Shown piece by piece: positions 8,641 through 49,600 of a DNA stretch of 64,000 nt. Position 1 is the stretch's first letter. The number at the start of each line of letters is the position of its first letter. Below the pieces are notes generated by a model. That model worked only from the letters and a program-made list of their open reading frames with translations. It was not told where the DNA came from and ran no database searches. Origin of the DNA: Candidatus Woesearchaeota archaeon (GTDB lineage Archaea; Nanobdellota; Nanobdellia; Woesearchaeales; ARS49); assembly GCA_016203305.1 (NCBI GenBank), contig JACQMY010000035.1, positions 574 to 64,573 of the forward strand, given 5' to 3'. The position numbers were made by a program, and so were the translations under genes.

Positions 8641-8692
8641 GTCGGAAATTTTCAATTTCCGATCACGCTCGGAATTGCGTTACAATTCCGAC
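8639..8692 (+). mobile_element. ~54-bp twin-hairpin MITE-like element with 9-bp TIRs (GTCGGAATT...AATTCCGAC), copy A
   Basis: It contains two adjacent perfect hairpins (tcggaaatt/aatttccga and tcggaattg/caattccga). It is 96% identical to the inverted copy at 36037-36088. A cognate flank without the insert occurs at ~11040. Confidence 0.55.
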
Positions 8693-8762: not shown

Positions 8763-9071
8763 ATGGCGTACAAAGCAACGTACTTCAATGCAACAGCCGA
8801 TCCTCGTTGGTATTCTGTCCGAGAAGAACGCGAAAACGACACTGTTACAGTCACCGTCACAGGTGATTGGAAGAGAACTCCCGAACCAAAAGCAGCAGAA
8901 ATAGGACAACTCTGCCGCGAACTCATCGACCTCAAAAGAAGAATCAAAGAAAATGGAGAAAAAGCAAAAATCTATGTTGACATTGCCAATTTTCCCAATG
9001 ATGAAACGGCCGAACCACTTTACAAAACAATTCTTACCGCGGCAAGCGCACGCCTGCCTACACAAAAGTGA
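8763..9071 (+). CDS. Hypothetical protein (102 aa)
   Basis: The ORF has an SD-like sequence and its stop overlaps the GTG start of the next ORF. Confidence 0.4.
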   Translation: MAYKATYFNATADPRWYSVREERENDTVTVTVTGDWKRTPEPKAAEIGQLCRELIDLKRRIKENGEKAKIYVDIANFPNDETAEPLYKTILTAASARLPTQK

Positions 9072-17405: not shown

Positions 17406-17990
17406 CTATTTCTGAAGTATTTTTCGTATTTCCTCATTGAAAATCTTGGCCCTGCCGAGGCTGGTCTGAGCTTTGTTTTGCATTGCGATCTCTCCGAGCT
17501 CGTACGTGAATGTTGTTCGCTTTTCCTTCTCGTAATAGTACTCCTCGATCAGCATTTTTGCTCTTTCCTTTCCAAGAAGCTCTGCTGTCTCTGTTTTTGC
17601 TTCCGCGAAGTCTTCGATCAATTTCTTCTGGAGCTTGCCGGTCAAGTAGAAGTAGAACACAAGGGCATCAAATGTGACTGCATGAACTCCTATTTCTGTT
17701 TTGATTTTGATTCCGTTACTTTCGAGCAGTGCCCGTGCCATGTAAAACATCGAGTAATAACTTGTGTTAATGACCCAGAGGAATCCATTAAAATCAGCAT
17801 AACCAATTTGACTTTGCAGTTGTTGGCTTGTTGACATTTCGAATAACAGCTTAGCGGCACTGAGTGAATTCCTGGCGTTTGTCAAGAAGAAATCGACGAA
17901 CTTCTTTTGACTGTCAATAACTCTCTTTCCTTCCTTTACGCATTTTGGCACTCTGCCCCTGATTTCTTTGAGTTTTTTATCGTCTAGCAT
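17406..17990 (-). CDS. HEPN-domain protein (putative toxin of a HEPN–MNT pair)
   Basis: A ~190-aa helical protein, overlapping and downstream of a nucleotidyltransferase gene. The assignment rests mainly on context. Confidence 0.5.
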   Translation of the reverse strand: MLDDKKLKEIRGRVPKCVKEGKRVIDSQKKFVDFFLTNARNSLSAAKLLFEMSTSQQLQSQIGYADFNGFLWVINTSYYSMFYMARALLESNGIKIKTEIGVHAVTFDALVFYFYLTGKLQKKLIEDFAEAKTETAELLGKERAKMLIEEYYYEKEKRTTFTYELGEIAMQNKAQTSLGRAKIFNEEIRKILQK

Positions 17991-18573
17991 TTTTCAATAT
18001 CCTATAGTAGTTTTCTGCGCCAAACAGTATAATATGCTGATTCAGCGTTTCATTCGCCACATTTTGCTCGTCACGTTTCGAAAACATTTCGTGAGCACTC
18101 TCACTCGTGATTACTTTGATATCGAATGACGTTGCAAAGCTCGAGGCAATGTTATGGAGTATTTTCTCAACTTCATTGACACGCTGCGGGTTTTCAACAA
18201 CAAACAATACATCAACGTCTCTTGGCTGCGCTTTACAAATAGAAGAGCCAAAGATAAGGAAAACAAAAAAATCAAGCTTCAACCGCACTAGAACGTCATT
18301 CGCACAGAGAGCAATGGTTTTGTTCATCGCAAGAAAGTCTTTCGCCTTTAACGATTCAACATACGCAAGCACAGAGTGATTTTCTCTGTAATTAAGGCTG
18401 AGAAAGCTTTGCTTATCTTTGTCAAGAAACCTCAAGCTTAAGAGGCTCTTAACTGAGCGGTGAATAAGTGGGTAGGGTTTTTTTAATACTTCAGAAATCT
18501 TCTTAATGCTAAACTTCTCAGTAATATTTGAAGCGAAAACTTCCAACACCCGCAACTGCGTTTTTGTCAACAT
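17977..18573 (-). CDS. Minimal nucleotidyltransferase (MNT, Pol-beta superfamily) with an N-terminal wHTH
   Basis: GSS...DVDVLFVVEN nucleotidyltransferase motif, with a 14-nt overlap to the HEPN gene. Confidence 0.6.
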   Translation of the reverse strand: MLTKTQLRVLEVFASNITEKFSIKKISEVLKKPYPLIHRSVKSLLSLRFLDKDKQSFLSLNYRENHSVLAYVESLKAKDFLAMNKTIALCANDVLVRLKLDFFVFLIFGSSICKAQPRDVDVLFVVENPQRVNEVEKILHNIASSFATSFDIKVITSESAHEMFSKRDEQNVANETLNQHIILFGAENYYRILKNARR

Positions 18574-18711: not shown

Positions 18712-19155
18712 TCAACATAGTGGCCATACATCGGACTCTTTGAGTTTAGGGAATTTTTTATCGGTTGTTTCTTGAACAGAGGTGATGTTCATCGTTCGCC
18801 CGTCGATGGTTACATAGTAAATAAATTTTGTAGTACTCAAGACAGACTTTGTTGGAACAACCACTTTAACAATATAAAAGTCCGCCAACCAGTCCAGCGC
18901 AGTATCCTCTGACAGAGTCGAGTCAACACAGTGAACACTCTTAACTGCGGTCACAGCAACAGTATCAAATTTATGGTTCTTAACCCATTCGACAGCAACA
19001 TCTTCCGCTATTAGAATGTCCTCAGATTTTGAACAACCAACAACCACTAACATTAGTAATGCAAGCAAAAACTTAACTCTTATGGACGATTGAATCGGCT
19101 GTTTCTTTATATTATTTGCTCCCATGCCTTTTCCTATATCTAGAACAATCCCCAC
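18712..19155 (-). CDS. Putative lipoprotein
   Basis: [16 protein letters not shown] lipobox. Confidence 0.45.
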
Positions 19156-20195
19156 TTTTTGCTTCCTTCTTTTTCAAACTCTTTCAACAACTCAATCTGT
19201 TTTTTAGTAACCTTCTTCGGAAGCGTGATGTTGACATTCACAACAATGTCTCCTTTGTGCTTGCTACGCAACTCTGGCAAGCCCTCACCTTCCAAACGAA
19301 TCTGAGCACCATTCTGCGTTCCAGAAGGAATGTCCACCTTCTTCTTACCATGCAACGTTTCAACTGTTATTTCGCCGCCAATGCAAGCGGTAACAAAACT
19401 AACAGGCTGAACAACAAGCAAGTCCGTTCCTTCACGCACGAAACGCTCGTCATTCTCAACATGAACAACAACGTAAAAATCGCCAGCAGAACCACCCTTA
19501 ACAGCCTCACCCTCACCAGCAAGACGCAACTTCATCCCATCCTCAATGCCAGCAGGAATCTTAACACTCAAAGGCTCACGAGAAACTAAAACACCATCAC
19601 CATCACACTCCTTGCAAACGTTTTCTGCCCGCTCGCCAGAACCCTTGCACGCATTACAGGTAGTTGTAGTAGCAAAAACGCCAAAAGGAGTCCTCCGTGC
19701 CTGACGCACAACACCTTGGCCTTGACAAGTATTACACGTTGTAAAATCCGTGCCTCCCTTGCCACGACAAGTATCACAAGCAACATGACGCGAAACGTGC
19801 AAGTCCTTCACAGCACCTTTCGCGACATCATCAAGAGAAATTGTAACCTCTGCAACCAAGTCACGGCCAGAACGACCATTCCCACGCCTGCCAAAACCAA
19901 AACCTGAAAAAAAGCTGTCAAAAATATCATCAAAATTAGAGCCGGCAGCAAAATCACGAAAATCAAACCCGGAAAACTGCTGGCCACCAGCACTGCCAAA
20001 CTGATCGTACTGCTTCCGCTTCTCAGGATCACCAAGAACAGCAGCAGCCTCATTCACCTGCTTGAACTTATCAGTAGCATCAGGACTCTTATTCAAGTCA
20101 GGATGATACTGCTTGGCAAGCTTCTTGTAAGCCCGCTTAATATCCTCTTGCGAAGCATCCTTGCTGACACCAAGAGTTTCGTAATAATCAACCAT
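19140..20195 (-). CDS. dnaJ: Chaperone DnaJ (Hsp40)
   Basis: J-domain with HPD (YHPDLN), G/F region, four CxxCxGxG zinc-finger repeats. Confidence 0.9.
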
Positions 20196-20345: not shown

Positions 20346-22163
20346 TCATGCTTTTTCGCCCTCGATCGTATCATCAGCAGAAGGTGCTTTATCAGCTTTT
20401 CCACCAGCTTTCTTGTACAACTCACCAGCAAGCTTATGGAAGCCGGCATTACACTCTTCCAGCTTTTTCTTCAAGGCTGCCAGGTCGCGAGGAGAAGCTG
20501 CAAGCAAACTCTTCAGCTCGCCAATCTTCTTCTTAACATCAGCCAATTCCTTTTCAGGAACCTTGCCCTCGAACTCCTTAAACTGGGCTTCAGCAGAGTA
20601 CACCAAGCTATCCGCATGGTTAACAGTCTCAATCTCCTCACGCTTCTGCTTGTCAGCATCAGCAAACTGCTCAGCCTCCTTGCGCATACGCTCAACCTCT
20701 GCAGCATCAAGCTTATTAGGAGCAGTAATCTTCATGCTCTGCACCTTGCCAGTGCCCAAGTCCTTCGCAGTCACGCTCAAGATTCCATTTGCATCAATAT
20801 CAAAAGTCACCTCAATCTGCGGAACCCCTCTAGGAGCAGGCGGAATGCCAACCAAGTCAAACTGGCCGAGCAACTTGTTGTCATTAAACATCGGACGCTC
20901 ACCCTGCGCGATCCTTATGGTAACGGCAGGCTGGTTGTCAGCAGCAGTGCTGAAAGTCTGGCCTTTCTTCGCAGGAATAGTCGTGTTGCGCTCAATCAAT
21001 TTAGTCAACACGCCACCCAACGTCTCAATGCCCAAGCTCAAAGGAGTAACGTCAAGCAAAAGAATATCCTTAACTTCTCCTGCAAGAACACCAGCCTGGA
21101 CAGCAGCACCCATAGCGACACACTCCATTGGATCAATAGAGCGCTCAACTTTCGAGCCAAACCACTTCTCAACATAATTCTGAACGATAGGCATGCGGGT
21201 AGGACCGCCAACCAAAATAACACGAGCAAGATCCTTCTGAGCAAGCTTGGCATCAGATAAAGCCTGATCAACAGACTTCTGACAACGCTTCACAATAGGA
21301 TCAACAAGCTCCTCTAATCTTGCACGAGTAAGCTTCATCTGCAGATGCTTCGGACCCTTGCTTGTCGCACTGATGAAAGGCAAATTAATCTCAGTCTCCA
21401 TCACAGTGCTAAGCTCTATCTTTGCCTTCTCAGCAGCCTCACGAACACGCTGCATTGCAACAGCATCCTCATTCAAATCAATACCGGCATCCTGCTGGAA
21501 CTGCTTGACAACAAAGTTGATCAATGCATTGTCCATATCAGTACCACCAAGCTGGGTGTCACCAGAAGTTGAAAGAACCTCGAAAACACCGTCACCAAAC
21601 TCCATAATGGTAACGTCCAGAGTTCCACCACCCAAGTCAAAGACAAGGATTTTCTGTTCCTTGCCTCCCTTGTCCAAACCATACGCAAGAGATGCAGCGG
21701 TCGGCTCGTTGATAATACGAACAACTTCCAAGCCGGCAATCGTTCCAGCATCCTTAGTAGCCTGACGCTGGTTGTCATCAAAATAAGCAGGCACTGTAAT
21801 AACCGCCTTCTTTATCGGCTCACCAAGGAAACCTTCAGCATCCCGCTTGATCTTCTGCAAGATAAAAGCGGAAATCTGCTGAGGAGTATACTCCTTGCCA
21901 TGGATGTTATACTTGAAATTCGTGCCCATCTTACGCTTAGCAGCATAAACAGTACCCTCTGGATTGCTAACAGCCTGACGCCTTGCAGGCTCTCCAACAA
22001 GCACCTGACCGTCCTTTGTAAACGCGACAAACGACGGGAACGCCTTACCGTACAACGACGCTCCTTCAGCAGACGGCACAATCTTCGGCCTGCCAGCTTC
22101 CAAAACAGAAGCAGCACTGTTACTTGTTCCCAGATCTATCCCGATAATTTTTTCTTTAGACAT
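20346..22163 (-). CDS. dnaK: Chaperone DnaK (Hsp70)
   Basis: [23 protein letters not shown] and the full Hsp70 signature set. The start was taken at [13 protein letters not shown] (22163), which overlaps the grpE stop. Confidence 0.95.
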
Positions 22164-22686
22164 TTTGAGTACCTCCCAATACTTTCTTTCCAGCATGAAC
22201 TTTACCCTTCGACACTGCGACACGCGCGTACCGAATTACTTTCCCATTCATCTCATATCCCTTCTGAAGCTCTTCAACAACAGTATCAGCAGGAGCTTCG
22301 CTCTCAACCTGCACCATGACTTCGTGCTTGTACGGATCGAACTTCTTGCCAACAGAATCAATCGGCTCAACATGTTCCTCGTCAAGCACTTTGTGCAAAT
22401 TCTTGAATATCATCTCAATGCCCTTGCGCGTTTCCTCAGGAACACCAGCAAGCTGTTTCAAAGCACGCTCGAAATCATCAATTATTAACAATAATTTCAC
22501 AACTAAATGCTCAGATGCAAAAGCCACGAATTCCTTACGCTCCTTATCTGTCCGCTTGCAATAATTCTCAAACTCTGCCTGCAAACGCTTCAAATGATCG
22601 GTATAGTCTGCGATGACAGCATCCTTTTTTGTAATCTCGTCCTTGAGCGCTGCCAATTCTGCTTCGGCTTTTGAAAGTTTGTCCAT
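22156..22686 (-). CDS. grpE: Nucleotide exchange factor GrpE
   Basis: Coiled-coil N-terminus, GrpE core ([10 protein letters not shown]...[25 protein letters not shown]). Confidence 0.85.
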
Positions 22687-22695
22687 GCTTCTTCC

Positions 22696-22712
22696 GTTGA
22701 CTTAAAGTCAAC
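22696..22712. promoter_or_regulatory. Perfect 17-bp palindrome GTTGACTTAAAGTCAAC between the TATA-like element and the grpE start codon (candidate heat-shock operator)
   Basis: Seen directly. It lies 10-26 nt upstream of the grpE ATG, and a TATA-like ctatataaat sits ~25 nt further upstream on the transcribed side. Confidence 0.45.
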
Positions 22713-22789
22713 TGAGCAGATGTAGAACTGAACTACTATATAAATGTTTGGCTTCTGAACGGAAGATTTAAATATATGTAATGGTTGGT

Positions 22790-22872
22790 GGTTCATGGGT
22801 ATTAGGCGTTAGGTATTAGGATGAAGGAAGAAGGCGGAAGATCTTCAACCTTCGCCCTTCCGCCTTCACCCA
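22790..22872. repeat. Heptamer array plus inverted complement (hairpin)
   Basis: gggtattaggcgttaggtattaggatgaaggaagaaggcggaag atcttcaaccttcgcccttccgccttcacc. Confidence 0.7.
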
Positions 22873-22886
22873 ACCCGAGGTGCACA

Positions 22887-23237
22887 ATGACACAAGAACA
22901 AATAAACCTAAACATCCACGAAGGAGAACCATTCTTCGCACACGAAGTAACAGTAAACTTCACACCAACACAGCTCACAATGGACTTCAAATGCATCACG
23001 CCAAGAAGCGATCCCAGAAGCAAGAAGCCAAACTTCCAACTCAAGCACAACGTAGTAATGCTCGACCCATGGCATGCAAAAGCGTTAATCAGCGTGCTTT
23101 CAAACGTTGTACAGAAATACGAACAAGAATTTGGAAAAATACAAAAACCCAAATCCCTTCTAAAAGCAGAAAAAAAGCAAAAAGAACTCGCAGAACAAGG
23201 ACAAAAACCAAGCGACATCCCAACATACATGGGTTGA
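22887..23237 (+). CDS. Hypothetical protein, DUF3467-like
   Basis: GAGGTG SD. MTQEQINLNIHEGEPFFAHEVTVNFTPTQLTMDFKCITPRSDP resembles the DUF3467 family, assigned from memory. Confidence 0.4.
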   Translation: MTQEQINLNIHEGEPFFAHEVTVNFTPTQLTMDFKCITPRSDPRSKKPNFQLKHNVVMLDPWHAKALISVLSNVVQKYEQEFGKIQKPKSLLKAEKKQKELAEQGQKPSDIPTYMG

Positions 23238-23238
23238 A

Positions 23239-23640
23239 ATGATCGTCAGAAGAATAACCATCGTAACCAATCGACGACCAACAACGCCGAACCTCAACGA
23301 CGAACTCCAATGGCTCGGCAACAGTTTAGGCTTGCTCGGCGAGCGCGACAGAGACAAAAGCTGCTTCCGCATCTTCATAGAGCTGCTAAAAGCAATAAAA
23401 GCAACAGGCGGCCTAACAAGCGACCAACTCTCAGACAAACTTGCCCTAACAAGAGCAACAGTGGTACACCACCTCAACAGCCTACAAGAACGAGGCATAG
23501 TCCTCCACCAAGGCAACCAATACATAATGCGAGAACACCAACTCACCAATCTAGTAGACGACATAAAACGAGACATGGAACGAGCACTATCAGACATGAA
23601 AAAAGCAGCAGAAGAACTGGATAGAATTCTGGAACTATAG
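23239..23640 (+). CDS. Winged-helix transcriptional regulator (ArsR/MarR-like)
   Basis: ELLKAIKATGGLTSDQLSDKLALTRATVVHHLNSLQERGIV. Confidence 0.55.
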   Translation: MIVRRITIVTNRRPTTPNLNDELQWLGNSLGLLGERDRDKSCFRIFIELLKAIKATGGLTSDQLSDKLALTRATVVHHLNSLQERGIVLHQGNQYIMREHQLTNLVDDIKRDMERALSDMKKAAEELDRILEL

Positions 23641-23733
23641 GTATTAGGCGTTAGGACGAAGGTATTAGGTTGTAAGACGAAGGCGGAAGGAAGAAGGTAT
23701 TAGGCGTTAGGTTGTAGGGCGGAAGGATGAAAT
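23636..23733. repeat. Heptamer array (G-rich only)
   Basis: taggtattaggcgttaggacgaaggtattaggttgtaagacgaaggcggaaggaagaaggtattaggcgttaggttgtagggcggaaggatg. Confidence 0.7.
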
Positions 23734-26363: not shown

Positions 26364-29300
26364 TTAGTCAAAACTCAAAGGCTCAAACATTGACATTATC
26401 GCATAAGCAGCGAGGCCAAGCAGAACAATAATCACAACTATCGCTATCTTAACTGCCTGGCTGTCAGGAGCGACGTCAAACTTTGCCGCAATGCTCTTCT
26501 TGGCATTTGACAAAAGCCTTCCCAACTTTGTGAACAAGCCCTCTTTAACAACTGCAGTTACTGGAACAGTAACCTCTGTCGGCTCAACAACAGGCTTTTC
26601 TGCCACTTTTTCAACCGGCTTCTCAACCGGCTTTTCAGGACGAGGCTGAATATTAAACGTAGGCAAGAACGGAACATTCGCAACAGTCTGGCCATTGGCA
26701 AGCTTGAACTCAACAGTCGCAGAGTTTCTACCAAAACTTAATACTTTCAAATCCAAATCTGCAACGCCGTCCTTGGACAAGTCAAACAAGCCACTCTCGC
26801 CCTTTGCAACAGGAATAAACTGAGCATTCAAAGCCCACTCAGTCGTCTGCCTACCAAGATCCACCTTACGCATGAAAATACTTGAAGGCAAAACAACCCC
26901 TCCAATGGTGAAAGACATAGGTTGACCAACAAACACTTCGCGAGCAACAGGAACTTCAGTCAAAGCAATACGAACACCGGCGCCTCCGCCAGAGCCACCA
27001 CCTCCACCACCGCCACCTCCGCCTCCGCCGCCAACACTTGGTGGAGGAGGAACTGCAACAGTCACGCTGCTCGAACCAACACTCGTGAAATTAAATCTAT
27101 CAGTAACAGTCAAAGTAACTGGGAAAGTTCCTGTCGTGTTATAACTCTTGTTAACACTTGAACTCGTGCTATTCGTACCGTCACCAAAGTTCCAGAAGAA
27201 CGACAAAGAATCATTCAAAGGTCCTGGAATGTTCGGATCAGTACTCGCGCTTGTGAATGTAATAACTGCATTCGGCTGCACTGCAGTAGCTGTCTGAGTA
27301 AATGACGCAACAGGTGGCAAAGGAATAACTTGCGACAAGTTTGCAGGACCAGACGCAGTAGCATTGTATGTTATGCCCCCCACCGCAATAGTACCTGAAG
27401 AGATCACGTTATTGGTAATGTTAGCGCTCGTGACAACAGCGTTGCTAAATTGGCTGTTAACAATCACGCTACCGACAATAACTGAGTTGTTGATGTTGCT
27501 GTTGACAATCGTGCTATTCGTAACATTGCTAAACGTCACATTGCTCTCAACAATAGAACTGCTGCCTTGAATGATGCTGCCAGTCAAATTGCTCGGGTCA
27601 ACAAAACTATCGGTAAACACGCAATTTGTTGCAGTAATGCCTTTAACCGTGCTGTTACGCACAACACAGTTTGTCAATAAAGAATTGGTAAATCTGCTAT
27701 CCAACCCGGAAACGTTCCGCAGCGTGCTATTCGAACCATTAACATTTATCAAAGAGCTATTTGAAGAAGTTGTTGTAGTCATATTCGCATTCAAAACAGT
27801 TGAAACGTTGATTGAGCCAGAAGTAAACACGCTATTGTTCATCGAGTTAACACCTGTAAGAGTTGACCCATCAAGGATATTCTGAGCAACATAAACCAGA
27901 TCTGAATTTGTAACATTACTTTGATTGTTGCATGCTACAAACACATTATTGCTGCCTAGAGTCAAGTTAGTGATGTTTGCAGTATGAGTCGTGCCATTGC
28001 CAGAGAAACCATTCGACATGCTGCCCTGCGCGACATCCTGAGTACTCCACCTGCACGATGTAACACCATTCGTTGTGACAGTCATTATGAATGAACTGAG
28101 GTTTAACAAAGTCCCGCTGGCTGGAACAATACTGGTCTGCGTTATCACGGGAGTAACAGTCACGAACAAAGTAGCACTCGCACCAGTCGCGTTCACATCA
28201 CCTGGGAAGACAGCAGTAACGTTGAACGTTCCTAACGATGTGAAATTAGTAACGTTCGTCAAAGGAGACGTTCCGTTTTGCGCAAGAGAGCCATTGATAA
28301 ACAAGTTCACAAAGCCGCCAAACGGATTTGTAACGTTTGCAACAATAGTCGCGGCATCATTAACTTGAACTGACGTGCTGGCTGCAACACCGTTAATAGT
28401 CAACGTAATCGCGCCAATGCCTGGGTTAATAGTATAAGTTGCATTTGCAGTCAAGTTGACATTGCCGGACGTATCATTCGCAAACCAGCGATAGGAATGA
28501 TTGCCAACAGTCAAGCCAGTCAAGTTCACTTCAAAAGTATTTGAAACACCAACACGAAGAGCTGAACGATTCAAGCCATCAAGCTCCAAAGTCATATTAG
28601 CAACTGCAAGATTATCAGTAACATCACGACGGAACGTGTAAACAGGACTAAAGTTTGCAGGAGACGCCGGGCTTAGTAATTCTGAACCAAACACCGGCGG
28701 AGTTGAATCAGGAACCACAACAAAGCGAGTCACACTCGAATTTGTGAAGTTCTGACTGCCAGCAAATACTGCAGTAATGTTAAACACGCCCTGAACGCCA
28801 AACAACTCATTCCTCGTCAAAGGAGCAGCTCCAGACGCAAGAAGCGCACCATTCTTGAAAATACTAACAGTTCCAGAAGTGTTTGTCAAGTTTGCAAATA
28901 ATGGAATAGTGCTGCCTTGCACAACAGTCACGTTGCCAGCAGTACCATTCAAAGTCAAGCTCAAATTACTAAACGCCTGACGAACACTATAGACACTTGC
29001 AGCGGTCACGTTCAAATTGCTGGAAGTATCACGAGCAAACCACTTGTACGAATAATTACCAGCTGCAAGCGTTGAAACATTAGCCTCAAACTCATTAGTC
29101 AGCCCAACACGCTGTGTTGTAACGTTCGCGCCATTAAACTCAAGGGAGACGTTTGAAACAGAAACGTCGTCAGTCACGTTACGCCTGAAAACATATTGTG
29201 CTTGAGGGAAGAAGCTGTTGTTCGCTGGAACAATAAGCTCTCCGCCAAACACAGGAGCCTGAGTGTCAATAACAGACACAAAACGCGTCAAGTTCGCAGG

Positions 29301-32300
29301 AGCAAAGTTTTGACTTCCGGCAAACTCAGTTGTAACATTAAACACGCCAGCAAAGTTAAAAGTCTGATTCGTACTCAAAGGAGCACTACCTGAAACAACA
29401 AACACTCCTGCTACTGAAATGTTAACAAGACCTGTTGTGTTAGCCAAGCTTGCAACAAGCTGAACCGTGCTGCTCTTTGATACTGTGATGTTTCCAGCAA
29501 CACCATTCAACGTCAAAGTCAAAGCGCTCTGCGCCTGCAAAATAGTATAATTGCTCGCAGTGCTGATATTTGTGTTGTTAGACGCATCAGTTGCGAACCA
29601 CCTGTAGGAATGATTACCCGCACTTGCATTTGAAATGTTAACTTCAAATGTGTCAGAAGCGCCAGCACGCAATGCAGTCAAATTAGTGCCATTAAACTCC
29701 AAGCGCACAGCAGCGACAGCATGGTCATCAGTAATATTTCTCCGGAAATTCGCCAATGAACCAAATACTGAGCTGTTCACAGGTACAACAGTCTCATTAC
29801 CGAAAGATGGCGGAAGAGTGTCAACAACAAAAACTGTAAACGAACGGTTTGCAGCAGAATAATTCTGATTGCCATCAAATGATGCGTTAATGGTGTAATT
29901 GCCTGGAATTATGAAAGTTTGATTTATACTTGCAGGATTATTCTGCGACAAGATCAAGGTTCCATTGTTGAACAACTTAACCAAACCAGAGGTATTAGTC
30001 AGATTTGCGGAAATGTTCAATATCGTCCTTGGCGAGACAGTGATGTTCGCAGCAGAGCCATTCAACAACAAGCTCAAATCACTTTGCGCGCGCAAAATCG
30101 ACAAAACAGAAACATTCGTGCTGTTCAAATTATTCGCACCATCCCTTGCAAACCAGCGAAAAGAATGGTTGCCGGCAGGAAGGTCCAAAACAGTAATGTT
30201 ATAGAAACTGCCATTCTGAGTGACATTTGTCAAGTTCTGACCATTCAGCTCGAATGTCACATTAGTGATATTTCCATTATCAGTCCAGTTAATGCCCCAC
30301 ATATAGCTCGCATTCGGTGCATAAACAGATCCATTCAACGGAGTAATTTGCCCACCAGGAGCAGGAGGAGTGATGTCAGAAATGTTCAAAGTGAAGTTGC
30401 CAGATGTGCATGCACCAACGTTATCACAAACCAGCAAAGGTATCACAAACACGCCATTGAATGCAGGCGTGAAGTTGATAACTCCGGTTAAATTGCTGAT
30501 GTTGAACAATGAGGCACTATCATTGAACGTTAAAATGTCATTCGTGGGATCACTGTCAGTCGCGTTCACATCAAAGAAAAACTCCCTGCCTGCCTCGCCA
30601 ATCTGGCTAGTGAAGTTCACAAACGCAGGAGCATCATTCAAGTTTGTAACACTAAAAGTGATGTTCTGCGAAACATTTTTTCCGGTACGATCGAACAAGA
30701 ACAAAGTCAAGTTCAAACTTCCAGTTGCATTAACTATTGGAACAAAAGCCAATCTGTCATTAGGAACGTCCAAGACCATATTAACAAGAGAAGTGTTCAA
30801 AACAGTAACCAACGTCAAGTTCGACTGGTTTGCAAGCTGGAACTTCCAAGAAAGATTGTTATTATTCGCGCCAGGACCATCCTCAGGATCATTCTCAAAT
30901 GGAGTAAGATCAATACTGTTATTCTGCTCCTCAAAGGTCGTGACGTTCGGAATAACTACTGTGAAGAATGGAACATCATCAACACCGTTCAAAACAATCG
31001 TGAACTCAGCAGTAACATTCTTACCAAACGGATCCTCTGCCGTCACGTTCACTTTTCTGACACCATTAACATTGAACTGAGGAATTATCAGCATACTGTT
31101 ATTCGAATTGTTAAACGTCAAAGTCACATTCGCCACAGACGACGCACGATATCCCAACGGATCACCATCAACATCAAAGAAAACCTGACTAAGATTTACT
31201 GTGAAAGTTGTGCTTTCATTAAATGGAGGGATTGTAGGAACACTCACGACAACAGGAGCATCGTTAACAGGAGTAACGTTAATTGTGATGTTCGCAGTAG
31301 AGGACAATCCCTGCGGGTCTGTTACAATCAATGTTGCCGTACCTATCCCGAAATCATCCGCAACAGGAACAACCGTCACGAACTGGTTCTGCTCGATCGA
31401 AACCGTGAAGCCAACAGTGCCAGAAACATTCAGAATGCCATACGTGAGCTGAGCCAGAGGAGTATCCACATCGGTCGTGAACTGGTGCAGGTTGACAACA
31501 CGAACGGCAGAACCGTCTTCAGTTATGTTAATCTGCGGCAATGCTGAAAACACCGGAGCACTTGCACTTGCAGAAACAATTATTGCGATAGTGTCAAACG
31601 CTGTCGCGTTCTGCGTGTCACGAACCGTAAAAACCACGTTGTCTGTGCCCACAAAGCCAGTGTTCGGCGTAAACTGCACGTCCTGGCCAAAGTCAACTCG
31701 AATTCCGATACTCGTGTTGCCAGAAAAGTTCAACGTCAAACTACCATCAGGATCCTGCGCGTCATCAATGAAAGGACTCACGTTAAACCGCGTCACGCTG
31801 TTTGCAAGAATCGTCAAGTTCTGCGGCAAATTAATTGTTGGAGGCGTATTTCCTGTTGAAACATTGCCGGGCTGCAAGAGAACAGAAACCGTTGCGTCAC
31901 CAAAAATGTCAACACTGTCCGTCACAGTTGTGAAATTTCCACTGCTGGTATTTGTTCCATTCACAACATACAAATAATTACCTTCAGGAACATTTGAAAA
32001 TCTAGCAGACCCATTCTCATCAGTTCTGTTCGAACCAATACCGGCCAAAGTCACGTTCGAACCGTTAATCTTCGCGCCAGTCTGAGCATTAAGAACATTA
32101 AACGTAACATTCCCACTCTGAGTTCCAATTACATTCACAAGCATACTCACTTCAGCAGTTATTTCCGGCAAAGTGGTAGGCAAAGCCGAGTTTGCACGCG
32201 CACGAACAGTAACATTATGCACGCCAGCCAGAGTTGGAACAAAAGAAAACTGTTGAAGCGTGGCATTTACAGGATCGGGGTTTTTGATCAACGTATTTCC

Positions 32301-33284
32301 TAACGAGCTGAATACTGTCGCGCTATTCCTTGCCACTATATAGTCAACATCCGTCTGCACAGGCGTCAAAGTTGAACCGTTGCCCTGCGCGTGATTTGTG
32401 ATCTTCGTGTATGAAAATCCCAACTCCAGACCAACACGCGCGCTTGTCGTCGTCTGCAGGTCAGCAAGAATGCTATAAAACTGGGAAGCAGGAGAAGTAA
32501 CAGTAAAAGGCGATTGCGTGGACTGAGTTTCCTGAGACGCACAAGTATCATCAACAACACTCGCACTCACGCGCGCAGTGAAAGTACCATTGGCTTGAGG
32601 GATGAAAGCAAACGAAACAGGAACTGTTGAATCTGCAACAATCGCGGTATTTGTAGCAGCGGTAAAGTTCTGCTGCTGGCTGTGAATGACCGTGCTGCCA
32701 TTCAAAACTTCAAACAAAACAGAAGTGTCGGCAGCCCAGAACTCCTGAACAAATTGAGGAGGAAGATACTGCACGTCCGTCCTCGTGATGCGGAACGCAC
32801 TCGATGTCTCAGCATCCAACTGAGCGCTAGTCTGGAACGCCAACGGCTTGTTCAGCTCAACGTTATTCGTAAAGCTCAACGCGCCAACACTCGCACGACA
32901 AGTATTAGGATACTTTGTAAAAGTGTTTGACTCTGAAGTTTGCGCAACACCACCAATGCCACGCGTGTTCCAAGTATGCTTACCAACCAAAGGACGATAA
33001 CCCTTTGCAAGGAAATACTCAGCATACCCGAACGCTGTTGCCAAACTATCAGGATAACGGAAAATCACATTACCATCAGTTGCCTGTGGTCCTTTGATAA
33101 TCTGACCAGAGAAAGCACCAACGCTGGCACAATTCGCGTCATTACAGTTCACAACAGTAGAGTTCAGCGAGACATTTATTCCAGGCAAGTCAGCATACGA
33201 AAAACGATACGTCACATCAACAGCAGCATACGCTACCTGAACTGCCAACAATGCTACCAATGCAAGTAACAATTTCTTCATCAT
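26364..33284 (-). CDS. Giant secreted surface protein (2,306 aa): signal peptide, ~4.5 Ig-like tandem repeats of ~230 aa, a beta-solenoid segment, a PKD domain, a poly-Gly linker and a C-terminal TM anchor. It is extremely rich in N-x-S/T sequons.
   Basis: MMKKLLLALVALLAVQVAYA signal. Repeated FRRxVTDD...GNHSYRWFA...LNG.AGN.TV modules. WNFGDGTNS PKD motif. A GGGGGGGGGGGGGSGGGAG run. PEKPVEKPVEKVAEKP then IAIVVIIVLLGLAAYAIM at the C-terminus. Confidence 0.8.
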   Translation of the reverse strand: MMKKLLLALVALLAVQVAYAAVDVTYRFSYADLPGINVSLNSTVVNCNDANCASVGAFSGQIIKGPQATDGNVIFRYPDSLATAFGYAEYFLAKGYRPLVGKHTWNTRGIGGVAQTSESNTFTKYPNTCRASVGALSFTNNVELNKPLAFQTSAQLDAETSSAFRITRTDVQYLPPQFVQEFWAADTSVLFEVLNGSTVIHSQQQNFTAATNTAIVADSTVPVSFAFIPQANGTFTARVSASVVDDTCASQETQSTQSPFTVTSPASQFYSILADLQTTTSARVGLELGFSYTKITNHAQGNGSTLTPVQTDVDYIVARNSATVFSSLGNTLIKNPDPVNATLQQFSFVPTLAGVHNVTVRARANSALPTTLPEITAEVSMLVNVIGTQSGNVTFNVLNAQTGAKINGSNVTLAGIGSNRTDENGSARFSNVPEGNYLYVVNGTNTSSGNFTTVTDSVDIFGDATVSVLLQPGNVSTGNTPPTINLPQNLTILANSVTRFNVSPFIDDAQDPDGSLTLNFSGNTSIGIRVDFGQDVQFTPNTGFVGTDNVVFTVRDTQNATAFDTIAIIVSASASAPVFSALPQINITEDGSAVRVVNLHQFTTDVDTPLAQLTYGILNVSGTVGFTVSIEQNQFVTVVPVADDFGIGTATLIVTDPQGLSSTANITINVTPVNDAPVVVSVPTIPPFNESTTFTVNLSQVFFDVDGDPLGYRASSVANVTLTFNNSNNSMLIIPQFNVNGVRKVNVTAEDPFGKNVTAEFTIVLNGVDDVPFFTVVIPNVTTFEEQNNSIDLTPFENDPEDGPGANNNNLSWKFQLANQSNLTLVTVLNTSLVNMVLDVPNDRLAFVPIVNATGSLNLTLFLFDRTGKNVSQNITFSVTNLNDAPAFVNFTSQIGEAGREFFFDVNATDSDPTNDILTFNDSASLFNISNLTGVINFTPAFNGVFVIPLLVCDNVGACTSGNFTLNISDITPPAPGGQITPLNGSVYAPNASYMWGINWTDNGNITNVTFELNGQNLTNVTQNGSFYNITVLDLPAGNHSFRWFARDGANNLNSTNVSVLSILRAQSDLSLLLNGSAANITVSPRTILNISANLTNTSGLVKLFNNGTLILSQNNPASINQTFIIPGNYTINASFDGNQNYSAANRSFTVFVVDTLPPSFGNETVVPVNSSVFGSLANFRRNITDDHAVAAVRLEFNGTNLTALRAGASDTFEVNISNASAGNHSYRWFATDASNNTNISTASNYTILQAQSALTLTLNGVAGNITVSKSSTVQLVASLANTTGLVNISVAGVFVVSGSAPLSTNQTFNFAGVFNVTTEFAGSQNFAPANLTRFVSVIDTQAPVFGGELIVPANNSFFPQAQYVFRRNVTDDVSVSNVSLEFNGANVTTQRVGLTNEFEANVSTLAAGNYSYKWFARDTSSNLNVTAASVYSVRQAFSNLSLTLNGTAGNVTVVQGSTIPLFANLTNTSGTVSIFKNGALLASGAAPLTRNELFGVQGVFNITAVFAGSQNFTNSSVTRFVVVPDSTPPVFGSELLSPASPANFSPVYTFRRDVTDNLAVANMTLELDGLNRSALRVGVSNTFEVNLTGLTVGNHSYRWFANDTSGNVNLTANATYTINPGIGAITLTINGVAASTSVQVNDAATIVANVTNPFGGFVNLFINGSLAQNGTSPLTNVTNFTSLGTFNVTAVFPGDVNATGASATLFVTVTPVITQTSIVPASGTLLNLSSFIMTVTTNGVTSCRWSTQDVAQGSMSNGFSGNGTTHTANITNLTLGSNNVFVACNNQSNVTNSDLVYVAQNILDGSTLTGVNSMNNSVFTSGSINVSTVLNANMTTTTSSNSSLINVNGSNSTLRNVSGLDSRFTNSLLTNCVVRNSTVKGITATNCVFTDSFVDPSNLTGSIIQGSSSIVESNVTFSNVTNSTIVNSNINNSVIVGSVIVNSQFSNAVVTSANITNNVISSGTIAVGGITYNATASGPANLSQVIPLPPVASFTQTATAVQPNAVITFTSASTDPNIPGPLNDSLSFFWNFGDGTNSTSSSVNKSYNTTGTFPVTLTVTDRFNFTSVGSSSVTVAVPPPPSVGGGGGGGGGGGGGSGGGAGVRIALTEVPVAREVFVGQPMSFTIGGVVLPSSIFMRKVDLGRQTTEWALNAQFIPVAKGESGLFDLSKDGVADLDLKVLSFGRNSATVEFKLANGQTVANVPFLPTFNIQPRPEKPVEKPVEKVAEKPVVEPTEVTVPVTAVVKEGLFTKLGRLLSNAKKSIAAKFDVAPDSQAVKIAIVVIIVLLGLAAYAIMSMFEPLSFD
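27600..30350 (-). repeat. In-frame tandem ~690-bp coding repeats (~4.5 copies) within the giant surface protein gene
   Basis: Recurrent protein blocks (FRRNxTDD / GNHSYRWFAxD / LNGxAGNxTV / FAGSQNF). Coordinates are approximate. Confidence 0.5.
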
Positions 33285-35405: not shown

Positions 35406-35972
35406 CTACAGTCTTCGTGAATGCGAACGTCGCGAAGGTCGAGCCTTCTCAGCGCCCATGCCCTTATACCGGAGTCCGCGCACCTTCCTGCCCGCGCTAG
35501 TCAACCCGCGGAAAACACGGCCAACATGCTGTGGCTCGCCTATCCAAGAAATCCGATGATCAGCAAGAACACCAGGATGAGACCTGTCAACCAAGACAAC
35601 CTCAAACCAGTAATGCTTACCATCCTCGTCAACATAATAAGAATTCAAAACTTCACAATTCTTGAAAACACGCCCAGCACGCTCCTCTGCAATCATCTGA
35701 TAGTTCTTACGCAGATTCAAACGAGCACCCATGTTGTGCGAATGCCTGCCACCACTCCAATCGTGACGCCTGTGCGATCCACGAGAAACACGCTGGCGAA
35801 CAAGCATAAAACCCTGCTTAGCACGATAGCCAACAGAACGCGCACGATCCAACCTAGTCGGGTGCTCGATACGTTGAGTAACAGGCTCGCGCCTCCAAAG
35901 AACCATACGATCCCGGTGAGCAGCACCAGCGAATTCCTTCCACGACTTTTGCAAGTATTTATAGACACCCAT
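35406..35972 (-). CDS. rpl15e: Ribosomal protein L15e
   Basis: MGVYKYLQKSWKE...YRAKQGFMLVRQRVSRG...YWFEVVLVD is the canonical L15e sequence. Confidence 0.9.
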   Translation of the reverse strand: MGVYKYLQKSWKEFAGAAHRDRMVLWRREPVTQRIEHPTRLDRARSVGYRAKQGFMLVRQRVSRGSHRRHDWSGGRHSHNMGARLNLRKNYQMIAEERAGRVFKNCEVLNSYYVDEDGKHYWFEVVLVDRSHPGVLADHRISWIGEPQHVGRVFRGLTSAGRKVRGLRYKGMGAEKARPSRRSHSRRL

Positions 35973-36036
35973 GTGAGAAGCGGGAAGAGGAGGGCTTTTT
36001 AAAGGTTGCGTTTTTGGTTTGCAGTTGGTAGTTCAT

Positions 36037-36088
36037 CGGAATTGTAATGCAATTCCGAGGTGATCGGAAATTGAAAATTTCCGACATG
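36037..36088 (-). mobile_element. Twin-hairpin MITE-like element, copy B (inverted relative to copy A)
   Basis: The reverse complement differs from 8639-8692 by one indel and one mismatch. Confidence 0.55.
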
Positions 36089-46624: not shown

Positions 46625-49600
46625 CTACCGCTTCCGCAACTTACGCTCATACACTTTCAACAACTTGTTAACACGCCCAATATCCTTATCCAAAGCATCA
46701 AACGCGTTAACCTGGCCCCTGACGTCAGGTTTCTGCGACAACTTGTCAACCTTAACCGGCTTCTTCCACAACACATCATTACTCAAATCACGCCTATACC
46801 TTCTCAACAACCTGCCAACAAGACCAGACTCTTTCTCCAAAGGCAGTTGGCTAGTAGTTTGTAGTTTGTAGTTGATATCTCGTGGCGCTGGCTTCCTGGC
46901 AATTGCATCAACACGCTCCTTCCAAAGTCTGCCAGTCAGATCTTTTCTATACTTATGCAACAAACTATCAATCCTGCCAGCATTCAAACCAACACGAGGT
47001 ATCTCCCTTGCAACAAACCTACGCTGCTCTGCACGACGCGCCTGATACGCAGCCCACTTGCCACGCACCACGCCAGGAACACGAACCGCAACCTGGCCAG
47101 CACGGAACGTCACTACCGCCAACAAAACAACCAGCAAAACAGCCCCAAGCATGTATCCAACACTCTTCCAGTCAACTTCTCTTGCTTTCTGAGCAACAGA
47201 ACGCCCAATAACAGAAACAGAGTCTGCTGCATCTCTTGCTGTGCTAACAGCACGGTCCACCAAACCATTAGCTATTGGCGGTTGGCCAGCAGTTTGTGGT
47301 TGGTAGTTTGTAGTTTGTAGTGGGTAGTTTGTAGTTTGTGGAGACAATTTCGCCAACGCCAAAGACACCTGGTTGTTGAACAACATGACAACCTGAACAC
47401 GCAAATCAGGCAAACCATCATCTGTAACATCAACATCCTTTGACTGACCAGATGAAAGTACAAACTCCTGAGGCTCACTCTGCACGCGCAACAAAACATT
47501 ATTCACACCAACATTCAAAACAGTCAAAACATGCCGCTCGCCAGCAACATCAAACACAACACGATCAAACTTATTCAAATACGGCGTAACAAATGAAGCA
47601 GCAGGCATGTTGAATTCCCTTGGAATACTCACGTTCTGCGTTGCACGCGTAGCACCACCACCGCCACCACCCGACGGAGCAGGAGACGGAACAGGCGGAA
47701 CAACAGTAACGTTAACCGTTGTAAGCTCAGAAACAACAACAGAACCATTACCACCAGACAAGTTCTGGAATGATGCGTTAACAGTATTGTTCAACGTACC
47801 ACTTGCTCCCGCACTAACGTTCACAGTAATATTTACAGTCGTGCTATTGCCTGGAGAAAGATTGCCCAACAACCAAGTATTGTTACCAACACTCGGAACC
47901 GGCTGACTACCATTAAACACCACACTGCCAGGATACGTTTCAACCAAAGTCACATTAAACGCAGTCTCAGTACCCGTATTATTGATTGTAATATTGTAAG
48001 ATAGCGTAGAACCATTATTCACAGGATCAGAACCATCAGACTTGGATACGTTGATTGTAATGTTGCCTAGTTCTCCAGCAGCATAACTCGTAAAGCTAGA
48101 AACGTTAAACACAAGCACGCCACCTACATAACTCACTTCTATGCACTGCGGAGGATTACACTGCTCAAACACACCATCATCATTAAAATCAACACGCGGA
48201 CGAGGATCTGTGAAAGACAAACCACGCAACGTGATTTGAGCGGAAGTGTTCAAGAAAGTAAGGTTTGTGCTGTTGAGGAAGGAATTGTTGAAGCTTGTGT
48301 TGAGATTGTTGTTGTCCGGCTCATGGACTATTGATGTGCTCACCGGGATTATTGCAGTGTTGATCATAAGAATGCTTCCGTTGTTTGAATGGAAGAGAGT
48401 ACGCGTGAATGAGTTATTTTGACTTGTCGCATCGACTTCCACCCAAGTACTCCCAGTGACAAGAGTCGTGTTCACAAAGGTATTATTACTCGAAGCAGTA
48501 AACCGCATCGCATTTTGACCGCCCAGAATGCTGGTGTTGGCGAGGTTGTTGCCTTCACCGGAAATATCAATCGCGCTTCCGGTTGTATTGGTTATCGCAA
48601 TCACGAATGTGTTGTTATAAAACGTATTGTTGTTTCCTGCAAGTTCCATTCCATTGCCACTGTTGCTCAGTCCGGTGTTGTGGAACAAGATATTGTTATT
48701 GCTGCCAGAAAGCAAATCCATGCCTCTGTTGGACCCGCTCGTGCCTCTATTCCTTATCAGGGTATTGTTCACACTTGATGCTGAGAGCGAAATGCCTCTC
48801 GCATCGGCCAACCCAGTACCATTGTTCCCACTCAGTGTGTTATTGCTACTACCCTCCAAACCGATTCCTGCCAACGACCCGCTCACTCCTGTGTTTTCAA
48901 TAAGAGTATTATTCGTTGCCGAATTCAAACGTAAGCCGATAGAGGTAGAGCTATTACCCGTGTTTCCAAACAGGAAATTGGCAGAGGCAGACTGAACGTG
49001 CAGCCCATAGCCACCGCTCGTGCTCCGGCCAGTATTCCCCCGCAAGGTATTATTCGTACTACTGCCAACAACAATGCCCTCATCACTCACTCCAACCCCC
49101 GTATTATTCTCAAAAGTACTGTTTATCACGCTTACTATCAACATTCCTCGCGAACCAGCTCCATTCGTAGTCGCAGAGTTGTTAACGAACCTGCTGTTGT
49201 TTGTTGACTGCACCAAAAAGCCTGAAGATCCTACTACACTCGCGTTCGTCTTCACAACATTACAATTCCTAACCGTGACATTCGACCTCTGGAATACAAA
49301 AATCCCATTTCCTGCCGCACTATTCGCATAACTTACATTGAATCCAGCACAATCCAATTCAACATTGTTCGACTGAATCTGGATCGCAGTAGCAGGACAA
49401 GTCACGTTCTCAGCCAATGTCGTGCTTGTCGTAATGTTGAGTGGACAGGCTGCTGACTCTGAAGCAGCATAACTTGTAAAGCTAGAAACGTTGAAAACAT
49501 ACACGCCGCCAGCAAAGCTCACTTCAGTACATTGAGGAGCATTACAGTTTGTAAACGTTCCATCGTCTTCAAAGTCAACACGCGGACGAGGATCTGTGAA

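What the first reader, a model, noticed from the sequence alone, without database searches (positions are those of the whole stretch)
22696..22712. Perfect 17-bp palindrome over the predicted grpE-dnaK-dnaJ transcription start
GTTGACTTAAAGTCAAC lies between the TATA-like box and the grpE ATG. This is the position where archaeal repressors such as Phr/HSR1 act. The sequence does not match CIRCE or the published Phr consensus, so it may be the operator of a different heat-shock regulator. Candidates are the adjacent wHTH gene 23239-23640 or the nearby MarR-like genes.
Basis: partly seen in the sequence, partly recalled or inferred. Interest (0 to 1): 0.5.

Follow-up and report, generated by a model that had tools for sequence, protein, structure and literature searches.

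The report
Heat-shock operator of DPANN archaea
The 17-bp palindrome is real and is the conserved probable binding site of a small, previously undescribed repressor encoded next door, which probably switches the Hsp70 (grpE-dnaK-dnaJ) chaperone genes of Woesearchaeota and related tiny archaea on and off.

Summary
Confirmed. GTTGACTTAAAGTCAAC lies at 22696-22712, 24 nt downstream of a consensus archaeal TATA box and 9 nt upstream of the grpE ATG. Such a palindrome is not rare in this window by itself; conservation is what makes it significant. Among 80 GrpE loci from reference genomes, 23 of the 24 that carry a homologue of the neighbouring 133-aa wHTH gene have GTTGA-N7-TCAAC in front of the operon. 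None of the 56 loci without that gene has it. Of 120 exact copies found in metagenomes, 67 lie beside this wHTH gene and/or grpE. One further copy precedes a stand-alone hsp20. The site lies 23-27 nt after the TATA box, over the predicted start. In a divergent clade it lies only 10 nt after the TATA box, so there it cannot be a transcribed hairpin. The inner stem positions vary without compensation, and no Rfam, CIRCE or HAIR match exists. The regulator is an ArsR/Lrs14-like wHTH with a long C-terminal helix. Sequence searches do not place it in the Phr/HSR1 family. Best reading: a new repressor-operator pair that controls a horizontally acquired bacterial Hsp70 operon from an archaeal promoter. 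Binding, repression and heat response are inferred, not shown.

The parts
22696..22712 (.). Palindromic operator GTTGACTTAAAGTCAAC; family consensus GTTGAnnTnAnnTCAAC
   Evidence: for the window. Searches show it conserved at the same promoter position in 31 independently sampled loci. Searches show that 67 of 120 exact metagenomic copies lie next to wHTH and/or grpE.
22737..22751 (-). grpE promoter: TATA box TTTATATA (22744-22737 on the minus strand) preceded by a BRE-like CCAAACA (22751-22745)
   Evidence: Sequence. Related loci have (C)CGAAAG-TTTATATA, and the TATA-to-palindrome distance is 23-27 nt.
22713..22736 (-). 24-nt spacer between TATA box and operator. The predicted transcription start lies at about 22713-22715, inferred from archaeal TATA-to-start spacing.
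   Evidence: for the sequence and for the geometry. The start site itself is inferred, not measured.
22156..22686 (-). grpE, first gene of the regulated operon
   Evidence: Pfam GrpE 3.2e-43.
20346..22163 (-). dnaK (Hsp70). The likely ATG is at 22163 ([12 protein letters not shown]...); the mechanical ORF extends to a GTG at 22223.
   Evidence: Pfam HSP70 1e-224; translation.
19140..20195 (-). dnaJ
   Evidence: Pfam DnaJ, DnaJ_C and DnaJ_CXXCXGXG.
22767..22774 (+). Back-to-back TATA box TTTAAATA of the divergent DUF3467-wHTH transcription unit
   Evidence: Sequence. The same back-to-back TATA arrangement appears in related loci. Its function is inferred.
22887..23237 (+). DUF3467 gene, a conserved companion of the Hsp70 operon. 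Here it is co-transcribed with the regulator; in other genomes it lies between grpE and dnaK.
   Evidence: Pfam DUF3467 1.7e-10, 41.2 bits against a cut-off of 25. Synteny.
23239..23640 (+). 133-aa wHTH protein, the proposed repressor that binds the palindrome
   Evidence: Pfam HTH_20, HTH_24 and HTH_5. Homologues of 46-74% identity lie divergently beside grpE in 24 genome loci and in loci found through the protein itself. The AF2 model shows a wHTH plus a C-terminal helix at 102-131.

Best explanation
The palindrome is the DNA operator of a dimeric winged-helix repressor, the 133-aa protein encoded at 23239-23640. This protein is divergently transcribed together with a DUF3467 gene. Each monomer would read one GTTGA half-site; the half-site centres are 12 bp apart and flank an A/T-rich core with invariant T8 and A10. 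The site begins 23-27 nt after a near-consensus BRE/TATA, which puts it at about +1 to +20. A bound dimer would therefore let TBP and TFB bind but block RNA polymerase recruitment or promoter escape. That would keep grpE-dnaK-dnaJ (plus hsp20 and DUF3467 in some genomes) low until stress releases the repressor. What is shown: the motif, its position, its conservation, its co-occurrence with the wHTH gene, and the wHTH fold. What is inferred: that this protein binds this site, that it represses rather than activates, and that heat or unfolded protein is the releasing signal.
For: (1) Gene and site co-occur. Among 80 GrpE loci, 23 of the 24 with the wHTH gene have GTTGA-N7-TCAAC (at most 1 mismatch) upstream of the operon, and 0 of the 56 without it do. 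Loci recovered through diverse wHTH homologues (Woesearchaeota, Pacearchaeota, Nanoarchaeia) again show the wHTH divergent from (DUF3467-)grpE-dnaK-dnaJ with the motif in the roughly 90-nt gap.
(2) Of 120 exact 17-mers found in metagenomes, 67 lie next to wHTH and/or grpE. Of the other 53, only one has an archaeal TATA box at 24 nt, and there the downstream gene is hsp20. In at least 8 loci hsp20 is the first gene after the site.
(3) The geometry is fixed. The TATA-to-site distance is 23-27 nt in about 90 loci.
(4) In the L030/L201/L021 clade (wHTH 37% identical) the site is GTTTA-N7-T(C/A)AAC. It lies 10 nt after the TATA box, between face-to-face promoters, so the start falls inside it. That fits a DNA site, not a transcribed hairpin.
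(5) In the logo from 31 sites the outer five bases, T8 and A10 are nearly invariant. Positions 6, 7, 11 and 12 vary without keeping complementarity. The covariation score is no better than shuffles (0.138 against 0.120 +/- 0.018; 69 of 500 shuffles reach it).
(6) The recognition helix (T/S)R(A/G)T(V/I)(V/I)HH(L/I)N is invariant across all clades, matching the conserved half-site.
(7) The AF2 model (pLDDT 86.7) shows a wHTH plus a 30-residue C-terminal helix suited to dimerisation.
(8) In L214 the wHTH gene lies at the end of the grpE-dnaK-dnaJ operon, as hrcA and hspR lie within the bacterial operons they control.
Against: There is no experimental evidence of binding, repression or heat induction, and no transcription start data. 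The co-occurrence of gene and motif is confounded by phylogeny: every locus with both belongs to one archaeal lineage. Some wHTH homologues (L210-L213) are not next to dnaK and have no motif nearby. L001 and L003 keep the promoter geometry but have a degenerate site (GTCGACGCTAAGTTGGC and GACGACGTGAGGTCGCA), and in L001 the remaining pairs would still form in RNA through G-U wobbles. In the window-type architecture the regulator's own promoter has no visible site, so autoregulation is not evident here.
Confidence: 0.72

Rival explanations
1. The palindrome acts as RNA: a 5'-terminal hairpin of the grpE mRNA that stabilises the transcript or serves as an RNA thermometer.
For: If transcription starts about 23 nt after the TATA box, the palindrome forms the first 20 nt of the mRNA, and it folds as a 7-bp hairpin. 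In L001 the diverged site keeps all six pairs through one compensatory change and two G-U changes.
Against: The hairpin does not include the ribosome-binding region or the AUG. No Rfam family matches. The inner pairs are broken in 8 and 10 of 28 sequences, and covariation is no better than shuffles. The loop bases T8 and A10 are nearly invariant, which a stem-loop does not require. In the L030/L201/L021 clade the site lies 10 nt after the TATA box and so would be only partly transcribed.
Confidence: 0.08
2. It is a genuine operator, but it is bound by a regulator other than the neighbouring wHTH, for example another HTH protein encoded elsewhere. The neighbour would then have a different role.
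For: Nothing here shows physical binding. Some homologues of the wHTH are not linked to dnaK.
Against: The wHTH gene is the only regulator gene syntenic with the site across distant clades and three gene orders. The other local HTH gene (17977-18573) has no counterpart in any related locus.
Confidence: 0.1
3. The wHTH binds the site but activates transcription, or acts as both repressor and activator.
For: Related Lrs14/Sta1-type and TrmB-type archaeal factors can activate. NCBIfam gives a weak Sta1 hit (3.9e-06, below the cut-off).
Against: The site lies downstream of a near-consensus BRE/TATA and over the predicted start. From established knowledge of archaeal regulators such as Phr, MDR1 and LrpA, this is the position of repressors; activators bind upstream of BRE.
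Confidence: 0.05
4. It is a chance palindrome without function.
For: Palindromes of this size are as frequent in the window as expected by chance (8 seen, about 6 expected).
Against: Sequence and position are conserved in more than 90 loci whose GrpE proteins are only 36-74% identical to the window's.
Confidence: 0.01

Closest known systems
Phr (Pyrococcus furiosus) and HSR1 (Archaeoglobus fulgidus) heat-shock repressors
   Same: Both are archaeal wHTH proteins that act on a palindromic site downstream of the TATA box and over the transcription start of heat-shock genes, including hsp20. These are described as the only known archaeal heat-shock transcription factors (PMC10653856; PMC10746257). 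The N-terminal wHTH plus C-terminal helix architecture is broadly similar (the Phr architecture is recalled from Liu et al. 2007).
   Different: There is no detectable sequence relationship: a family profile searched against all PDB sequences does not list Phr (2P4W) among the 60 shown of 67 matches at E <= 10, and Phr is not among the 50 matches listed by Foldseek. The protein is about 133 aa rather than about 200. The operator consensus differs (GTTGAnnTnAnnTCAAC). The main target is a bacterial-type Hsp70 operon, which Thermococcales lack. The hosts are mesophilic DPANN archaea.
HrcA-CIRCE and HspR-HAIR of bacteria
   Same: The logic is the same: a dedicated repressor encoded in or beside the grpE-dnaK-dnaJ operon binds an inverted repeat at its promoter. 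In L214 the wHTH gene even lies inside the operon. The HAIR half-site CTTGAGT superficially resembles GTTGACT.
   Different: The window has no CIRCE and no HAIR. The regulator has neither an HrcA domain nor a MerR domain. The promoter is archaeal BRE/TATA, not sigma-dependent. The spacing of the repeat differs.
Lrs14/Sta1/AbfR and ArsR-type small archaeal wHTH regulators (ST1889 2D1H, AbfR2 6CMV, Sso10a 1R7J)
   Same: These are the closest by sequence profile (2D1H at 1e-06, Sso10a at 1.5e-03) and by fold (2D1H with TM 0.53/0.67, AbfR2 with TM 0.50/0.58). Sso10a also has a wHTH followed by a long C-terminal helix.
   Different: All NCBIfam family scores are far below the curated cut-offs. The conserved N-terminal segment RRITIVNxRRP...ELQWFGxSLGLFGxRDRDKSCFRIF is specific to this family. 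No link to chaperone genes is known to me for the Lrs14 or Sso10a proteins.

Membership tests
Phr/HSR1 archaeal heat-shock regulators | Sequence homology to Phr (PF1790; structure 2P4W) | tested here: not met
   A profile of 32 family members searched against all PDB sequences at E <= 10 does not list 2P4W among the 60 shown of 67 hits. The best hits are ST1889 (1e-06) and Sso10a. A single-sequence search gives the same result.
Phr/HSR1 archaeal heat-shock regulators | Operator downstream of the TATA box and overlapping the transcription start of heat-shock genes | tested here: met
   The site starts 23-27 nt after the TATA 8-mer in about 90 loci. The start position is inferred from TATA spacing.
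Phr/HSR1 archaeal heat-shock regulators | Published operator consensus (Phr: TTTA..T..C..AAC-N5-GTT..; HSR1: CTAAC-N5-GTTAG; both recalled from the literature, not retrieved here) | tested here: not met
   The consensus here is GTTGAnnTnAnnTCAAC. The paper that gives the Phr consensus could not be opened.
Phr/HSR1 archaeal heat-shock regulators | Regulon includes hsp20 and an AAA+ ATPase | tested here: inconclusive
   hsp20 follows the site in at least 8 operons and in one stand-alone gene. No AAA+ gene with a site was seen. Whole genomes could not be scanned.
HrcA-CIRCE | CIRCE element TTAGCACTC-N9-GAGTGCTAA and an HrcA-domain repressor | tested here: not met
   There are 0 matches with up to 3 mismatches, and no HrcA Pfam domain in the neighbouring genes.
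HspR-HAIR | HAIR element CTTGAGT-N7-ACTCAAG and a MerR-type repressor | tested here: not met
   There are 0 matches with up to 2 mismatches. The regulator is ArsR/MarR-like, not MerR-like.
Winged-helix (ArsR/HTH_20-like) DNA-binding superfamily | wHTH domain above Pfam gathering scores; three-helix bundle plus beta-hairpin wing | tested here: met
   HTH_20 scores 30.8 bits (cut-off 27), HTH_24 27.8 (21.9) and HTH_5 25.0 (22). The AF2 model has helices at 41-55, 61-68 and 72-84 and a wing at 88-97. Foldseek hits are to MarR, ArsR and Lrs14 proteins.
ArsR/SmtB metal sensors | Metal-binding cysteine or histidine sites (alpha3N or alpha5) | not tested
   Only one nearly invariant cysteine (C42) is present. 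No metal-site analysis was done.
RNA thermometers (ROSE, fourU) or other known leader RNAs | A hairpin that sequesters the ribosome-binding site or AUG; covariation; an Rfam model match | tested here: not met
   The hairpin excludes the SD region and the AUG. There is no Rfam hit on the palindrome. There is no covariation beyond shuffles.

The most novel reading that the evidence does not exclude
The regulator may be the sensor of a chaperone-titration loop, which would be the first in archaea. Its invariant N-terminal tail, RRITIVNxRRP, has no predicted secondary structure. It is a hydrophobic core flanked by arginines, like classical DnaK-binding peptides. DnaK/DnaJ, possibly with the always co-located DUF3467 protein, would bind this tail and keep the repressor active. 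Unfolded proteins would titrate the chaperones away and de-repress the operon, as in HspR-DnaK or sigma32-DnaK. A horizontally acquired bacterial Hsp70 system would then have been rewired under an archaeal promoter with a newly evolved feedback repressor.
Probability: 0.15. Interest if true: 0.8.

Novelty: new variant of a known kind. Interest (0 to 1): 0.6.

Why it matters
According to recent papers, only Phr and HSR1 are known as dedicated heat-shock transcription factors in archaea (PMC10653856). No cis-regulatory system has been described for DPANN archaea. A survey of the widespread DnaK-DnaJ-GrpE system in DPANN does not mention a regulator (PMC8204110). The result here is a concrete, testable protein-site pair: a 133-aa protein and a 17-bp site. 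It shows how a bacterial chaperone operon acquired by gene transfer was placed under archaeal BRE/TATA control with its own repressor. Because these organisms are uncultivated, a sharply defined operator and a small soluble regulator make the circuit directly testable in vitro. The work also links DUF3467 to Hsp70 biology.

Tried and rejected
(1) Significance within the window: palindromes of this size are not enriched, so the case rests on comparative data.
(2) Extra copies in the window: only a 1-2-mismatch site inside a giant ORF at 62880, judged to be chance.
(3) Known elements: no CIRCE, HAIR or Rfam match.
(4) RNA hairpin or thermometer: rejected as the main explanation (geometry of the L030 clade).
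(5) Phr membership: not supported by sequence or fold ranking.
(6) Other local candidates ('MarR-like genes'): ORF 17977-18573 has only weak Lrs14-like hits and no syntenic counterpart.
(7) Co-variation of recognition helix and operator: the helix is invariant even where the site is GTTTA or degenerate, so this test gave no information.
(9) The paper with the Phr consensus (PMC2820856) is not held.
(10) A whole-genome regulon scan was not possible because only flanks of at most 10 kb can be fetched.

Full report
OBSERVATION. The sequence GTTGACTTAAAGTCAAC is present at exactly 22696-22712 as a perfect 8+1+8 palindrome. The genes to its left on the minus strand are grpE (22156-22686), dnaK and dnaJ (Pfam). 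On the grpE strand the promoter reads CCAAACA-TTTATATA-24 nt-GTTGACTTTAAGTCAAC-GGAAGAAGC-ATG. This is a BRE/TATA-like element (22737-22751), a 24-nt spacer and then the palindrome, which ends 9 nt before the start codon. On the other side a back-to-back TATA box (TTTAAATA, 22767-22774) faces a two-gene unit. The first gene is a 116-aa DUF3467 protein (22887-23237; Pfam 1.7e-10). The second is a 133-aa winged-helix protein (23239-23640; HTH_20, HTH_24 and HTH_5). Within this window alone the palindrome is not statistically remarkable. Eight perfect palindromes with arms of at least 8 bp occur where about six are expected. The only other near-copy lies inside a giant ORF.

ORIGIN. The wHTH and DUF3467 proteins are identical to NCBI proteins from a Candidatus Woesearchaeota MAG contig of 112,799 bp. 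GrpE relatives place the window among Woesearchaeota and Nanoarchaeota (DPANN) genomes.

CONSERVATION. I fetched 80 loci that encode GrpE relatives from one-genome-per-species contigs. Twenty-four of them carry a homologue of the wHTH gene in the flank (37-73% identity). Twenty-three of these have GTTGA-N7-TCAAC, with at most one mismatch, in front of the operon. None of the 56 loci without the wHTH gene has such a site; these are bacteria plus a few other archaea. The exception, L001, keeps the promoter geometry but has a diverged site; so does its truncated relative L003, whose contig is cut so that its wHTH status is unknown.

Sixty-seven of them lie next to the wHTH gene and/or grpE. The other 53 have varied G+C content (0.26-0.68) and no archaeal TATA box at the right distance, with one exception. 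That exception is L131, where the site precedes a stand-alone hsp20 gene. In at least eight operons hsp20 is the first gene after the site, for example L155: wHTH <- site -> hsp20-grpE-x-x-DUF3467-dnaK.

Starting instead from diverse wHTH homologues gave the same picture in a Pacearchaeota genome, a Nanoarchaeia genome and further Woesearchaeota. There are three gene orders. In the first, DUF3467-wHTH is divergent from grpE, as in the window. In the second, wHTH alone is divergent and DUF3467 lies inside the operon. In the third, wHTH lies at the end of the operon (L214). A few homologues (L210-L213) are not linked to dnaK and have no site nearby.

ANATOMY OF THE SITE. Thirty-one sites sampled without reference to the motif give G T T G A n n T n A n n T C A A C. 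The outer five positions, T8 and A10 are each conserved in 28-31 of the 31 sites. Positions 6, 7, 11 and 12 vary freely. The distance from the end of the TATA 8-mer to the site is 23-27 nt in about 90 loci. By the usual archaeal spacing this puts the site at roughly +1 to +20. The promoters have near-consensus BRE/TATA elements (CGAAAG-TTTATATA), so they are probably strong promoters that need to be held down.

In the most divergent clade (L030, L201, L021) the site is GTTTA-N7-T(C/A)AAC and lies only 10 nt after the TATA box. It is sandwiched between face-to-face TATA boxes of the wHTH gene and the DUF3467-grpE operon. One bound dimer would therefore block both promoters, and the start would fall inside the palindrome. 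The Pacearchaeota locus L202 has two tandem sites.

DNA SITE OR RNA HAIRPIN. The transcribed palindrome can fold as a 7-bp hairpin at the 5' end of the mRNA, but this hairpin does not cover the ribosome-binding region or the AUG. No Rfam family matches it. On 28 distinct sites the inner pairs are broken in 8 and 10 sequences. The covariation score (0.138) is within the range of shuffles (0.120 +/- 0.018; 69 of 500 shuffles reach it). The putative loop bases T8 and A10 are almost invariant, which suggests sequence readout rather than structure. The L030-clade geometry is incompatible with a fully transcribed hairpin. One observation points the other way: in L001 the degenerate site would still pair fully as RNA through G-U wobbles. 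I therefore keep the RNA model as a minor rival.

THE REGULATOR. The family is compact. It has 284 clusters (at 50% identity) with E <= 1e-10 among 1.84 billion representatives, nearly all 130-146 aa and matching over their full length. Public annotations say only 'winged helix-turn-helix' or 'ArsR family' transcriptional regulator. Conserved features are:
- an N-terminal RRITIVNxRRP segment;
- an ELQWFGxSLGLFGxRDRDKSCFRIF segment;
- a recognition helix (T/S)R(A/G)T(V/I)(V/I)HH(L/I)N, invariant in all clades;
- a C-terminal amphipathic helix.

AlphaFold2 (pLDDT 86.7) gives an N-terminal tail without regular structure, a canonical wHTH with a wing, and a helix at 102-131. The closest solved relatives are ST1889 (Lrs14-like; profile E 1e-06, TM 0.53/0.67), Sso10a and AbfR2, together with generic MarR and ArsR proteins. 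Phr (2P4W) does not appear. The protein is therefore a wHTH of the ArsR/Lrs14 kind and not a detectable member of the Phr/HSR1 family.

MECHANISM. This is inferred. A dimer held together by the C-terminal helices reads the two GTTGA half-sites, whose centres are 12 bp apart. Because the dimer sits downstream of BRE/TATA and over the start, it blocks RNA polymerase recruitment. This is the established mode of archaeal repressors such as Phr. Stress would release it and induce grpE-dnaK-dnaJ, plus hsp20 and DUF3467 where present. The releasing signal is unknown. It could be intrinsic thermolability, as assumed for Phr. It could also be chaperone titration, since the conserved N-terminal tail without predicted secondary structure resembles DnaK-binding peptides; that is a speculative idea. 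CIRCE and HAIR are absent.

COMPARISON AND NOVELTY. Recent papers name Phr and HSR1 as the only dedicated archaeal heat-shock transcription factors (PMC10653856; PMC10746257). The paper that documents the bacterial-type DnaK-DnaJ-GrpE system across DPANN does not contain the word 'regulator' (PMC8204110). Full-text searches found no description of this motif or protein. The logic, a dedicated repressor with an inverted repeat at a chaperone promoter, is well known from HrcA-CIRCE, HspR-HAIR and Phr. The protein family, the operator and the host lineage are new. I class it as a new variant of a known kind.

LIMITS. Everything about binding, the direction of regulation and the stimulus is inference. 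The co-occurrence statistics are not phylogenetically independent. Whole genomes could not be scanned, so the regulon (for example groES/EL or the thermosome) is incompletely known.

Noticed in passing
window 8642-8691 and 36036-36084: Two different 9-bp-arm palindromes, TCGGAAATT-N3-AATTTCCGA and TCGGAATTG-N5-CAATTCCGA, occur as an adjacent pair at two intergenic places in mirror orientation. Each pair lies about 65-70 nt upstream of a start codon: ORF 8763-9071 (+) and ribosomal protein L15e (35406-35972, -). The pairs also lie next to an Lhr-type helicase gene and a family-B DNA polymerase gene. This could be a second operator pair or a structured element.
   Followed up: partly
window 22798-22877, 23640-23711 and about 12 other intergenic places (e.g. 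3172, 10895, 10993, 12021, 35027): There is a dispersed purine-rich intergenic repeat family (GGTATTAGGCGTTAGG, GAAGGCGGAAG). GAAGGCGGAAG occurs 14 times against 0.76 expected, almost always on the + strand whatever the gene orientation. In the leader of the DUF3467-wHTH unit two copies form an 11-bp inverted repeat (22830-22840 and 22857-22867). That repeat gives only sub-threshold miRNA-like Rfam hits.
   Followed up: partly
[not shown]
   Followed up: partly
L097 484-580: A small metagenome contig carries four tandem copies of the same motif (GTTGAC[CT]TAAnnTCAACGG) spaced about 25-30 bp apart, with no chaperone genes. This iteron-like array could belong to a plasmid or virus that uses a related DNA-binding protein.
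   Followed up: partly
L001 2870-2900 and its wHTH gene (2034-2432): This is the one genome in which a wHTH gene accompanies a degenerate operator (GTCGACGCTAAGTTGGC). It is also the only wHTH homologue among those compared that has lost the otherwise nearly invariant cysteine (KSCFRIF becomes KSRFRIF).
   Followed up: no
window 46625-63997 (-) and 26364-33284 (-): There are two giant ORFs. One has more than 5790 aa and runs off the window end; the other has 2306 aa. They are typical of DPANN surface proteins but were not examined.
   Followed up: no
window 22156-22223: The mechanical dnaK ORF starts at a GTG at 22223, inside grpE. The conserved N-terminus [12 protein letters not shown] starts at the ATG at 22163, which overlaps the end of grpE by 8 nt. 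This suggests translational coupling.
   Followed up: no
window 17406-18573 (-): Downstream of dnaJ lie overlapping ORFs: a weakly Lrs14-like HTH protein (17977-18573) and a weakly HEPN-like protein (17406-17990). They could be a toxin-antitoxin-type pair. They are not conserved next to the operon in related loci.
   Followed up: partly
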